Assembly: GCF_000026545.1 (NCBI RefSeq) | Contig: NC_011601.1 | Reading direction: 5' to 3' (one strand) | Source: Escherichia coli O127:H6 str. E2348/69 | GTDB taxonomy: Bacteria; Pseudomonadota; Gammaproteobacteria; Enterobacterales; Enterobacteriaceae | DNA length: 64,000 nucleotides | In this document: positions 54,101 through 57,100 of the stretch, piece by piece | How the letters are laid out: every line of letters starts with the position of its first letter | Position numbering within the stretch: position 1 is the stretch's first letter | Program-made: the position numbers

Positions 54101-57100
54101 TGTTCTTAAAAATACTCAACCTAAAATAATGCTTTTATATGCTGAAGCATAGTTCTCGATAACAAATTTCCCGGAGGCACGAATTGCCTGTTCCCGATAA
54201 TTTTCATAGTCATCGAATATTTTATCCAATTTATATCCAATGTCGTCTTCAGTATTTTCCACAAGTAACCCATTACCCTCAATTAATTCAAAACATCCGC
54301 CCACATCACTTAACAGGAGTGGTATTGCAGCTGTGTGAGCCTCAAGGCCTGACATAGGCAAACCTTCACTATCGGATATCAGTGAAAATAAATCATACTC
54401 ATGATAGTTATAAAAATTATTGACCTCACCCAAAAAATGAATATTTTCACATTCACTGAATTGTTTCTTCAATGATTCTAACCTTTCCCCCCCTCCTACG
54501 ATATGGAGGCTATACTGGGGCTTTTTCGATATTACATTCGCTAACAACTCGGGGCGCTTAGGGTGTGTTAACCTACCAACAAACAGAACCTTATACTGGA
54601 GTTGTTTATTATTACATCTCGGCATCTGAGGCACTGAATTCGATACTGTGATTATCTTTGGTTCTTTTATACCAATATTCTCAATTGCCTTTTTTTCATC
54701 ACTTTTGGAAACACACCATATAACATCAGTTAATAAAGAAAGGTATTTTTCCACAATGCAAAAAATTGATTTTAGGCGACCACCATTATATAAACAAGAC
54801 CATCCATGCGAAACATAAATACATTTAAAGTCGACTAGTAATCGAACTAACCTGGCATAAACTCCGGCATTAGCAGAACTTGCTATTAACGTTGAAATGT
54901 TATTTTCTTTTAAAATTTTTCTCAATTTAAACAATGTAAGGAAGTCAAAATATTTTTTAATACCTGGTATGACAAAAACTCCGGCAAAGACATCTTTATG
55001 TGTGAGCCATCCTTCTTCAGATGTAATAAGAAATATATTACATTCCTCTTTAATAAGGTTAGATATTTCATTTACCCATGTTTGTGCACCACCAATTTCT
55101 GATTTTGTAACAATAAAACCAACATTTTTCATATATCAAAATTCCAAAAATTATTTTTTATATCCATTTGGATTGTTTGTTTGCCAACGCCATACATCTT
55201 CGATCATTTCTTTCAATTTTTTTTCCGCTTTCCAGGAAAGCTTTTTATGTGCTAAATCAGCAGACGCCCATGACTCCGCAACATCCCCCTCACGTCTATT
55301 ACAAATAGCAACAGGTATACTCTTTTTAGTGACTATCTCAAACATTTTTACAATCTCTAAAACAGAATAACCTTGACCAGTGCCTAAATTAAAAGCTTCA
55401 TAATTGACATCATTTAAAAACATATATTCTAATGCTTTAACATGCCCTTTAGCCAAATCACAGACATGTATATAGTCTCTTACTCCTGTACCATCTTTAG
55501 TTGGATAATCGTTGCCATAAATATTTAATACAGGAAGTTGATTTTGTGCAACTTTAGATATATAAGGAACCAGATTATTAGGAATCCCGTTAGGATTTTC
55601 ACCAATCATCCCGGACTTATGTGCTCCGATTGGATTAAAGTAACGCAGTGCAATTACTGATTTATTATTATCACTATCACAATAATCACTCAAAATTATT
55701 TCTATTATAAATTTCGATGTCCCATATGGGTTTGTAGTTTCACCAATTCGTCTATCTTCCGTATGGGGAGGGATACTGTTATTCCCATAAACAGTAGCAG
55801 AAGAGCTAAATATCATTTTATTAATGTTATATCTCTTCATGCATTCAAGTAATACTAAAGTTCCACCAACATTATTAGAATAATACTCTAAGGGCTTTAA
55901 CTTAGACTCACCTACAGATTTTAACGATGCAAAGTGAATTACAGCATCGATATGGTGTCTTGAAAAAATCTCATCAAGTAGATTTTTATCACGGATATCA
56001 CCTTGATAAGAAATAATTTTCTTATTAGTTATTTGCTCTACTCTTTTTAATGATTCTATAGAGGAATTGACAAAATTATCTATCGAAACGACATCATGAC
56101 CATTATTAAGTAACTCAAGTATGGTATGGGATCCAATATATCCTGCACCGCCTGTTACGAAAATCACCATATAAACCTCCTTTACCATGAGGATTGAGAG
56201 AAAAACACACGCTACCGCCCTTGGCTTAACAGTTACCAACTCACTGAAAATGAATCATAGGTACTAAGCATTTAATACTTTTCACTATTTTCCAATTGTC
56301 TAACCAAACGAAGTCAGATACAAGGAAAATCTATGTCCGAGCGATACTTGCGGTAACTTATTGTTATTAAATACTTTAAATAAAAGACAGGAACATTCTT
56401 ATAATGTAAGCATCTCTGCTTTTGAATGTTCACTGCCGTTCTATTTTTATTCAATCCACCATATATGGATGATTAATTTTTATTCGCTTAACAGCTTCTC
56501 AATCCCTTTACGGAACTTCGCCCCTTCTTTCAGGTTGCGTAGTCCATACTTCACAAACGCCTGCATATAACCCATTTTTTTACCGCAGTCGTAGCTGTCG
56601 CCGGTCATCAGCATGGCATCAACGGACTGTTTTTTCGCCAGCTCGGCAATGGCATCAGTCAGCTGAATACGTCCCCATGCACCAGGCTGAGTACGTTCAA
56701 GTTCCGGCCAAATATCGGCAGAAAGCACATAGCGACCAACGGCCATGATGTCTGAGTCCAGCGTCTGCGGCTGATCCGGCTTTTCGATGAATTCAACAAT
56801 GCGGCTGACTTTACCTTCACGATCCAGTGGTTCTTTTGTCTGAATGACTGAGTATTCAGAGAGCTCACCCGGCATACGTTTTGCCAGCACCTGGCTGCGT
56901 CCCGTTTCATTGAAGCGCGCAATCATGGCAGCAAGGTTGTAGCGTAGCGGGTCGGCGCTGGCGTCGTCGATCACAACGTCTGGCAGCACCACGACAAATG
57001 GATTGTCACCAATGGCAGGTCGCGCACATAAAATGGAGTGGCCTAAACCTAAAGGTTCACCCTGACGCACGTTCATAATGGTCACGCCCGGCGGACAGAT

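What the first reader, a model, noticed from the sequence alone, without database searches (positions are those of the whole stretch)
56171..56479. ops antitermination element in the O-antigen operon leader
GGCGGTAGCGT on the minus strand (56209-56219) lies about 40 nt upstream of gne in the galF-gne intergenic region. This is the RfaH-recruiting ops element normally found in the JUMPstart sequence of O-antigen operons, implying RfaH-dependent readthrough of the whole 12-gene cluster.
Basis: partly seen in the sequence, partly recalled or inferred. Interest (0 to 1): 0.3.

Follow-up and report, generated by a model that had tools for sequence, protein, structure and literature searches.

The report
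Standard JUMPstart/ops leader of O127 operon
The motif is a real, textbook JUMPstart/ops antitermination signal in the leader of the E. coli O127 O-antigen operon; this element is already known upstream of E. coli O-antigen clusters generally, so the finding is correct but ordinary.

Summary
GGCGGTAGCGT is at 56209-56219 (-). With the next G it forms the full 12-nt ops consensus GGCGGTAGCGTG (56208-56219), 37 nt upstream of the gne ATG (56170), inside the 309-bp galF-gne spacer.

Rfam RF01707 matches 56208-56246 (-) at 52.5 bits (threshold 35). 33 of 39 bases match the E. coli K-12 JUMPstart, and the block is nearly invariant across nine E. coli leaders that otherwise diverge.

Upstream lie a conserved hairpin with a U-run after galF (probable terminator) and a conserved promoter-like site (TTGTAT-17-GACAAT, 56323-56295). 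No credible promoter fits downstream of ops.

The window is E. coli O127 (100% identical to E2348/69 over wzx-wzy). Twelve tightly packed, mostly AT-rich genes (43926-56170) follow.

RfaH dependence was not measured for this strain. It is inferred from the homologous O6 leader of CFT073, where RfaH ChIP covers the whole operon and loss of rfaH lowers distal RNA polymerase occupancy about threefold.

A second exact 11-mer at 17553 lies inside a pduO-like gene without JUMPstart flanks and is probably inert. Novelty: already known. Interest: low.

The parts
56480..57373 (-). [quoted passage not shown]
   Evidence: ORF. RefSeq annotation of the 100%-identical locus. Pfam NTP_transferase match.
56378..56446 (-). 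Long hairpin (G+C core 56386-56437) followed by a U-rich run (56378-56385). Probably the intrinsic terminator of galF, which would separate galF from the O-antigen transcription unit.
   Evidence: Fold energy -23.3 kcal/mol, z = -5.66, 0 of 200 shuffles as stable. The equivalent hairpins in K-12, Nissle, AVS0713 and RM10410 give z = -7.2 to -8.9 with different interior sequences. The arms AACGGCAG / CTGCCGTT are conserved in alignment A1. The simple terminator scan missed it because its loop limit is 8. Terminator function is inferred.
56295..56323 (-). Predicted sigma-70 promoter of the O-antigen operon: -35 TTGTAT (56318-56323), 17-nt spacer, -10 GACAAT (56295-56300). Predicted transcription start near 56289 (56286-56292), giving a leader of about 120 nt.
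   Evidence: It sits in the invariant blocks CCTTGT.TC and TTGGT.AGACAATT of the nine-leader alignment. It is the second-best hit of my own PWM scan of the region. In K-12 the same -10 ends 6 nt before the position that lies 173 nt upstream of rfbB; 173 nt is the leader length I recall from Marolda & Valvano 1998 for O7, a paper not held in the library. The strict consensus scan found nothing. Predicted, not mapped.
56208..56246 (-). 39-nt JUMPstart element: CAGTGAGTTGGTAACTGTTAAGCCAAGGGCGGTAGCGTG
   Evidence: Rfam RF01707, 52.5 bits against gathering score 35, model positions 1-38 of 38. 33 of 39 bases identical to the K-12 rfb JUMPstart. Aligned with eight other O-antigen leaders and with the K-12 wza leader.
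56221..56239 (-). 5-bp stem-loop that Rfam annotates within JUMPstart RNA (arms 56235-56239 UUGGU and 56221-56225 GCCAA)
   Evidence: All 5 pairs form. The outermost pair is U-A here, C-G in other rfb leaders and U-G in K-12 wza. That is only one compensatory pair in 6 sequences, and 164 of 500 shuffles do as well, so the support is weak. The minimum-energy fold of the whole leader does not contain this stem.
56208..56219 (-). ops element GGCGGTAGCGTG on the non-template strand. G5/T6 (the bases RfaH reads) are at 56215/56214, the C3:G8 pair at 56217/56212, the pause position U11 at 56209 and G12 at 56208.
   Evidence: Exact match. All positions shown by mutagenesis to matter (C3, G4, G5, T6, A7, G8 for recruitment; G12 for the pause) carry the consensus base (PMC5995543). 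Same 12-mer as the RfaH-bound wzx, wza and rfaQ sites of CFT073.
56176..56182 (-). Shine-Dalgarno sequence AAGGAGG, 5 nt before the gne ATG
   Evidence: Read directly from the sequence.
55151..56170 (-). gne (GalE-family 4-epimerase), first gene of the O127 cluster
   Evidence: 1020-nt ORF from the ATG at 56170. RefSeq 'galE' at the identical locus. Pfam Epimerase / GDP_Man_Dehyd matches. The ORF listing start at 56239 (TTG) is an upstream extension that would overlap the JUMPstart and is not the annotated start.
43926..56170 (-). The 12-gene O127 O-antigen operon: gne, glycosyltransferase, gmd, fcl, gmm, manC, manB, wzx, acetyltransferase, wzy, glycosyltransferase, alpha-1,2-fucosyltransferase
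   Evidence: ORFs and gaps of -8 to +26 nt. RefSeq annotations of identical sequence. GC is 28-36% for eight genes and 53-56% for gmd, fcl, gmm and manB.

Best explanation
This is the standard leader of an E. coli O-antigen operon, here serogroup O127.

1. A hairpin with a U-run (56378-56446) probably ends galF transcription.
2. A sigma-70 promoter is predicted at TTGTAT-17-GACAAT (56323-56295). It would start a leader of about 120 nt.
3. About 70 nt into the leader, RNA polymerase transcribes the JUMPstart and reaches ops (56219-56208), which is a consensus pause signal.
4. The polymerase pauses at U11 (56209). The exposed non-template strand folds into a tiny hairpin (C3:G8) that presents G5 and T6.
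5. The N-terminal domain of RfaH binds these bases. [quoted passage not shown]
6. RfaH then stays on the polymerase and excludes NusG. This suppresses pausing, Rho-dependent termination and H-NS roadblocks, and can tether a ribosome through S10.
7. As a result the long, AT-rich 12-gene cluster (43926-56170) is transcribed to its end, and possibly on into gnd-ugd-wzzB.

Shown here: all the sequence features, their positions and their conservation. Inferred from homologous systems: the promoter and terminator functions, RfaH recruitment, and its effect on the O127 genes.
For: - **Motif.** The ops 12-mer is exact, on the strand that is non-template for the operon.
- **JUMPstart.** A full-length Rfam JUMPstart hit at 52.5 bits against threshold 35, E = 3.8e-9. 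33 of 39 bases match the K-12 element.
- **Conservation.** In nine E. coli leaders that otherwise diverge (mean column identity 78%, with many indels), the JUMPstart/ops block, the promoter-like block and the post-galF hairpin arms are the invariant parts.
- **Terminator.** The post-galF hairpin is far more stable than shuffled sequence, here and in four other serogroups.
- **Operon.** Twelve co-directional genes with gaps of 26 nt or less. GC is 28-36% in eight of them.
- **Identity.** The window is 100% identical to E. coli O127 strains over wzx-wzy.
- **Experiment, CFT073 O6 leader** (PMC9765446). This leader belongs to the same leader family in my alignment, represented by Nissle O6.
  - The same 12-mer lies 67 nt after the transcription-unit start.
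  - The RfaH ChIP peak spans 15.4 kb from wzx to wzzB.
  - The distal/proximal RNA polymerase ratio in the rfaH deletion is 0.34 of wild type.
- **Experiment, ops.** Every ops position needed for recruitment or pausing carries the consensus base (PMC5995543).
- **Prior description.** JUMPstart is described as the conserved 5' boundary of E. coli O-antigen clusters. Primers complementary to it were used to delimit all 196 clusters compared, O127 among them (PMC4732683). RfaH regulation of O-antigen clusters through JUMPstart is cited from Wang et al. 1998 (reference list).
Against: - Nothing was measured for this strain. No transcription start, RfaH occupancy or rfaH-mutant phenotype for O127 was found in the library.
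- The strict promoter scan found no site in 56100-56600. The promoter rests on conservation and a permissive PWM.
- rfaH itself is not in the window.
- gne has a strong Shine-Dalgarno sequence (AAGGAGG). RfaH-dependent ribosome recruitment has been described for leaders that lack one (PMC5995543), so that branch of the mechanism may matter little for the first gene.
- The leader as a whole is no more stable than shuffled sequence (z = -0.2).
Confidence: 0.93

Rival explanations
1. The JUMPstart works mainly as an RNA element. In this reading the conserved stem-loop (56221-56239), rather than the DNA ops site, would be the functional unit, for example by binding a factor or stabilising the transcript.
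For: - Rfam files JUMPstart as a cis-regulatory RNA with a 5-bp stem. Weinberg et al. report a conserved stem-loop among JUMPstart elements (PMC2864571).
- All five pairs form here. The outer pair is U-A, against C-G and U-G elsewhere.
Against: - There is only one compensatory pair in six sequences, and 164 of 500 shuffles do as well.
- The minimum-energy fold of the leader does not use this stem, and the leader is no more stable than shuffles.
- The invariant part is the unpaired 3' 13 nt, which is ops itself.
- Mutational and structural data assign recruitment to the non-template DNA (PMC5995543).
- This reading could add to the ops mechanism but could not replace it.
Confidence: 0.05
2. The motif is a chance or relic match with no role. 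The operon would be expressed from its promoter without RfaH.
For: - The bare 8-mer and 11-mer are not significantly enriched in the window.
- An identical 11-mer lies inside a coding sequence at 17553.
- In CFT073, 34 of 42 ops-like sites bind no RfaH.
Against: - The site has the full 39-nt JUMPstart context, E = 3.8e-9.
- It lies in an untranslated leader on the non-template strand.
- It is invariant at the orthologous position in all leaders compared.
- In CFT073 every ops site located in a leader bound RfaH.
Confidence: 0.01
3. A promoter overlapping the JUMPstart (TTGGTA-19-TAGCGT, -10 ending at 56209) makes transcripts that start downstream of ops and escape RfaH control.
For: A promoter-like match scoring 5.0 in my PWM scan, against 6.4 for the conserved upstream site.
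Against: - The 19-nt spacer is unfavourable and the -10 is poor.
- The hexamers are simply the conserved JUMPstart bases.
- The resulting leader would be about 30 nt.
- In the O6 homologue the transcription unit starts 67 nt upstream of ops.
Confidence: 0.01

Closest known systems
JUMPstart element (Hobbs & Reeves 1994; Rfam RF01707) of E. coli O-antigen (rfb/wb*) clusters
   Same: - Same position, downstream of galF and upstream of the first O-antigen gene.
- Same 39-nt length, with 33 of 39 bases identical to the K-12 element.
- Identical 3' 13 nt including ops, and the stem-loop is preserved.
   Different: - Six substitutions in the 5' two-thirds. One is G-to-A in the upstream GGTAGC repeat (GGTAAC here). 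Two others form a U-A outer stem pair instead of C-G.
- The leader is shorter than in rfbB-first clusters: 75 nt instead of 91 nt from the -10 to ops, and 37 nt instead of about 75 nt from ops to the start codon.
- The same variant is found, 100% identical, in an O128 strain.
ops site of the CFT073 O6 wzx operon, an experimentally RfaH-bound leader (PMC9765446)
   Same: - Identical 12-mer GGCGGTAGCGTG in the leader, on the non-template strand.
- Same galF-downstream location.
- AT-rich operon ending before gnd.
   Different: - The first gene is wzx rather than gne.
- In CFT073, ops is 71 nt from the first gene (ops start to gene start; the same measure gives 49 nt here) and the UTR is 138 nt, against about 120 nt predicted here.
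- There are no experimental data for O127.
ops/JUMPstart of the colanic acid (wza) operon of E. coli K-12
   Same: Same ops 12-mer, and a JUMPstart with the same stem.
   Different: The loop sequence differs (AGCTAAAAA). It belongs to another operon, whose leader lies outside the window.

Membership tests
ops (operon polarity suppressor) element | 12-nt consensus GGCGGTAGnnTG with consensus bases at C3, G4, G5, T6, A7, G8 (recruitment) and G12 (pause) | tested here: met
   GGCGGTAGCGTG is exact at 56219-56208. Required positions are taken from PMC5995543.
ops (operon polarity suppressor) element | Lies on the non-template strand of the transcription unit | tested here: met
   The motif reads 5'->3' on the minus strand, the coding strand of gne and of the other 11 genes.
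ops (operon polarity suppressor) element | Located in the untranslated 5' leader, downstream of the promoter and upstream of the first gene | tested here: met
   It is 37 nt upstream of the gne ATG and 75 nt downstream of the conserved promoter-like -10. The promoter is predicted, not mapped. In the O6 homologue the transcription unit starts 67 nt upstream of ops.
ops (operon polarity suppressor) element | Recruits RfaH to paused RNA polymerase; expression of distal genes depends on rfaH | not testable with these tools
   This needs ChIP, in vitro transcription or an rfaH mutant. It has been shown for the identical 12-mer in the CFT073 wzx, rfaQ and other leaders.
ops (operon polarity suppressor) element | The host encodes RfaH | not tested
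   rfaH is not in this 64-kb window. The window is E. coli. From general knowledge, rfaH belongs to the E. coli core genome.
JUMPstart (Rfam RF01707) | Score at or above the curated gathering threshold of the covariance model, over its full length | tested here: met
   52.5 bits against 35, model positions 1-38 of 38, E = 3.8e-9 for the window.
JUMPstart (Rfam RF01707) | 39-bp conserved block upstream of a polysaccharide gene cluster, with ops at its 3' end | tested here: met
   33 of 39 bases identical to the K-12 rfb JUMPstart. It lies immediately upstream of the 12-gene O127 cluster.
JUMPstart (Rfam RF01707) | Conserved 5-bp stem-loop | tested here: inconclusive
   All pairs form, and one pair changes on both sides (U-A against C-G). 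With 6 distinct sequences, 164 of 500 shuffles do as well. The stem is absent from the minimum-energy fold of the leader.

The most novel reading that the evidence does not exclude
The least ordinary reading the evidence leaves open concerns the second site, not the leader. An exact ops 11-mer (GGCGGTAGCGTt, 17553-17563, +) lies on the non-template strand inside a pduO-like gene. It might recruit RfaH to the distal part of a pdu-like operon when translation is uncoupled.

A milder variant concerns the O127 leader. It is unusually compact (37 nt from ops to the ATG) and has a strong Shine-Dalgarno sequence. RfaH might therefore act there purely as an antiterminator, with no part in ribosome loading at the first gene.
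Probability: 0.04. Interest if true: 0.35.

Novelty: already known. Interest (0 to 1): 0.07.

Why it matters
It matters little beyond correct annotation.

- JUMPstart/ops upstream of E. coli O-antigen clusters has been known since the 1990s. It is conserved enough to serve as a PCR primer site for delimiting these clusters (PMC4732683).
- For this window it marks the true 5' boundary of the O127 transcription unit. It also fixes the gne start at 56170, not the longer TTG ORF at 56239.
- It predicts that an rfaH mutant of this enteropathogenic serotype would lose distal O-antigen gene expression.

Tried and rejected
- **Strict scan.** The sigma-70 and terminator consensus scan of 56100-56600 found nothing. 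The promoter and terminator calls therefore rest on cross-serogroup conservation, a permissive PWM of my own and folding.
- **O7 promoter paper.** I tried to read Marolda & Valvano 1998 (PMC107806) for the mapped O7 promoter, but it is not held. The 173-nt leader length is from my memory of its abstract and is used only as a consistency check.
- **Leader structure.** Folding the whole predicted leader gave no significant structure (z = -0.2).
- **Covariation.** The test of the JUMPstart stem on six sequences was not significant.
- **Another promoter-like site.** I considered TTGAAT-17-GAACAT (56454-56426), the top PWM hit. I set it aside because it lies inside the galF terminator hairpin. It would in any case be upstream of ops, so it would not change the conclusion.
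- **E2348/69 paper.** I expected PMC9765446 to be about EPEC E2348/69. It is about UPEC CFT073 (O6), so it gives evidence by homology only.
- **Not run.** I ran no collection-wide scan for JUMPstart variants, because Rfam and the literature already establish the family.

Full report
**Observation**

The minus strand of 56171-56479 reads, just before the gne start...TTTTCAGTGAGTTGGTAACTGTTAAGCCAAGGGCGGTAGCGTGTGTTTTTCTCTCAATCCTCATGGTAAAGGAGGTTTATATG.

With the following G it gives the complete 12-nt ops consensus GGCGGTAGCGTG (56208-56219).
- The stated interval is exactly the intergenic region. galF is the ORF 56480-57373 (-). The first O-antigen gene starts at the ATG at 56170, preceded by AAGGAGG.
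- The longer ORF listed from a TTG at 56239 is an upstream extension. The RefSeq annotation of a 100%-identical locus places the 1020-nt gene at the ATG.

**Is it more than chance?**

The short motif alone is not.

- The 8-mer core occurs three times in the window against 1.35 expected.
- The 11-mer with one mismatch allowed occurs twice against 0.84 expected.
- One exact copy lies inside a coding sequence at 17553.

The context settles the question.

- The Rfam JUMPstart covariance model (RF01707) matches 56208-56246 (-) over its whole length at 52.5 bits. Its gathering score is 35, and E = 3.8e-9 for the window. It is the only match of any Rfam family in 56100-56600 at E <= 1.
- The 39-mer shares 33 of 39 bases with the K-12 rfb JUMPstart, and its last 13 bases are identical.

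**Identity of the locus**

- The spacer plus its flanks is 100% identical to an E. coli chromosome.
- The distal five genes are 100% identical to O127:H6 strains including E2348/69, where they are annotated as O90/O127-family wzx and wzy.
- The cluster runs gne, glycosyltransferase, gmd, fcl, gmm, manC, manB, wzx, acetyltransferase, wzy, glycosyltransferase, alpha-1,2-fucosyltransferase. That is twelve genes, all on the minus strand, with gaps of -8 to +26 nt. gnd follows after a 120-nt gap.
- This matches the published O86/O90/O127 description of seven shared genes plus five downstream genes (PMC7685785).
- The gene upstream of galF (57616-58611) is annotated as the Und-PP-GlcNAc 4-epimerase. 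The review calls this gene gnu and places it just upstream of galF.

**Anatomy of the spacer**

I aligned the galF-to-first-gene spacers of eight other E. coli strains with the window. They include O16 K-12, O6 Nissle, O113 and several rfbB-first clusters. The spacers differ by many substitutions and indels, but three blocks are invariant or nearly so.

1. **A probable galF terminator.** About 40 nt after the galF stop, AACGGCAG pairs with CTGCCGTT around a variable interior, followed by a U-rich run.
   - In the window this hairpin (56378-56446) folds at -23.3 kcal/mol, z = -5.66.
   - In four other serogroups z is -7.2 to -8.9, although the interiors differ.
   - I read it as the intrinsic terminator of galF. 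This is an inference.
2. **A promoter-like site.** The block GGATTTTCCTTGT.TC ... TTGGT.AGACAATT contains TTGTAT, a 17-nt spacer and GACAAT (56323-56295).
   - It is the second-best hit of a simple sigma-70 weight-matrix scan.
   - The tool's stricter scan found nothing.
   - In K-12 the same -10 ends six bases before the position 173 nt upstream of rfbB. That agrees with the 173-nt leader I recall for the O7 cluster from Marolda & Valvano 1998. I could not read that paper here, so this is only a consistency check.
3. **The JUMPstart/ops block.**

The predicted transcript would start near 56289. That gives a leader of about 120 nt with ops at roughly +70 to +82.

- Flanking JUMPstart conservation is present, as shown above.
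- A promoter downstream of ops is implausible.
  - Only 37 nt separate ops from the ATG.
  - The single promoter-like match ending there (TTGGTA-19-TAGCGT) is weak and consists of the JUMPstart's own conserved bases.
  - In the homologous O6 leader of CFT073, the RNA-seq transcription-unit start lies 67 nt upstream of ops.

**Mechanism**

The mechanism comes from established work, not from this window.

- ops is a consensus pause signal in the non-template strand. RNA polymerase pauses at U11 (here 56209).
- The non-template strand forms a small hairpin closed by C3:G8, which exposes G5 and the flipped-out T6. The N-terminal domain of RfaH reads these bases.
- Substitutions G4C, G5A, A7T and G8C abolish recruitment. 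C3G and T6A reduce it. G12C removes the pause (PMC5995543). The window carries the consensus base at every one of these positions.
- Once bound, RfaH stays on the polymerase until termination, excludes NusG, opposes Rho-dependent termination and can bind ribosomal protein S10.

In CFT073 (PMC9765446):

- Eight leader ops sites bind RfaH. One is the O-antigen wzx leader, which has the same 12-mer.
- The ChIP peak spans 15.4 kb, from wzx through gndA, ugd and wzzB.
- The distal/proximal RNA polymerase ratio in the rfaH deletion is 0.34 of wild type.
- The operon is covered by H-NS.

The O127 cluster has the composition expected of such a target. Eight of its twelve genes are 28-36% GC. I therefore infer RfaH-dependent read-through of the 12 genes with high confidence. 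This rests on homology and is not shown for this strain. The CFT073 data suggest the modified polymerase may continue past the cluster.

**RNA structure**

- Rfam annotates a 5-bp stem within the JUMPstart. Here all five pairs form.
- The outer pair is U-A, against C-G in other rfb leaders and U-G in K-12 wza.
- With six distinct sequences this single compensatory pair is not significant; 164 of 500 shuffles do as well.
- The leader as a whole is no more stable than shuffled sequence.
- An RNA-level role cannot be excluded, but it is not needed.

**Differences from the commonest form**

- There are six substitutions in the 5' part of the JUMPstart, including GGTAAC in place of the upstream GGTAGC repeat.
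- The leader is shorter on both sides of ops than in rfbB-first clusters.
- The first gene has a strong Shine-Dalgarno sequence. RfaH-mediated ribosome recruitment has been described for leaders that lack one, and most downstream genes of this cluster have weak or no such sequence.
- An O128 strain has the identical variant.

**The second exact 11-mer**

- It lies at 17553-17563 (+), inside ORF 16620-17627 (+). That ORF has Pfam cobalamin adenosyltransferase and HbpS-like domains and so resembles PduO.
- The motif encodes Ser-Gly-Gly-Ser-Val.
- It is on the non-template strand but has no JUMPstart flank, and it has T instead of G at position 12.
- In CFT073 all 22 non-template intragenic ops sites lacked RfaH signal. 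I therefore consider this site inert.

**Verdict**

The element is a textbook JUMPstart/ops leader, described as the conserved 5' boundary of E. coli O-antigen clusters and used as a primer site to delimit them, O127 included (PMC4732683). It is already known and of low interest.

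Noticed in passing
window 17553-17563 (+), inside ORF 16620-17627 (+): A second exact copy of GGCGGTAGCGT lies on the coding (non-template) strand of a PduO-like gene (Pfam Cob_adeno_trans + HbpS-like) and encodes SGGSV. It has no JUMPstart flank, and position 12 is T. It is probably inert: in CFT073, 22 such intragenic sites bind no RfaH.
   Followed up: partly
window 10689-10696 (-): A third copy of the 8-mer core GGCGGTAG lies on the template strand of the + strand ORF 9408-11009. Nothing suggests a function.
   Followed up: no
L002 (NZ_CP059840.2, E2348/69) 4503-10488, compared with window 51300-54300: This RefSeq assembly of E2348/69 runs wcaF-gmd-fcl-gmm-manC-manB-wzx. It therefore lacks wcaI to wcaM, gnu, galF, the JUMPstart leader, gne and the first glycosyltransferase, all of which the window has. 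The O-antigen gmd-fcl-gmm of the window is about 98-99% identical to the colanic-acid copy. The difference looks like a deletion, or an assembly collapse, between these 2.6-kb direct repeats. If it is a real deletion, the distal O127 genes in that stock would be fused to the colanic acid operon.
   Followed up: partly
window 43926-56170: The composition is mosaic. gmd, fcl, gmm and manB are 53-56% GC, while gne, the glycosyltransferases, manC, wzx, wzy and the acetyltransferase are 28-36% GC. This is consistent with the GDP-fucose genes having been copied from the colanic acid cluster.
   Followed up: partly
window 56378-56446 (-): A long conserved hairpin with a U-run sits just after galF. 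It has different interior sequences but the same fold in five serogroups (z = -5.7 to -8.9). It is probably the galF intrinsic terminator. The simple terminator scan missed it.
   Followed up: yes
window 56426-56454 (-): The best-scoring promoter-like match of the spacer (TTGAAT-17-GAACAT) lies inside the galF terminator hairpin. A similar TTGATA ... GAAAAT is present in K-12 with a 19-nt spacer. Its significance is unknown.
   Followed up: no
window 56176-56182 (-) and the starts of the other 11 genes: gne has a canonical Shine-Dalgarno sequence, AAGGAGG. Most downstream genes (for example wzx, the first glycosyltransferase and wzy) have weak or no such sequence. That fits a dependence on transcription-translation coupling.
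   Followed up: partly
window 57616-58611 (-): A second epimerase gene lies between wcaM and galF. It is annotated as Und-PP-GlcNAc 4-epimerase (gnu), as expected for O antigens that begin with GalNAc.
   Followed up: partly
window 32471-32594 (+), 5589-5763 (-), 6833-6916 (+), 29658-29732 (-), 1295-1367 (+): Other Rfam hits above threshold: histidine operon leader, cobalamin riboswitch, sRNAs STnc230 and STnc240, and a tRNA.
   Followed up: no
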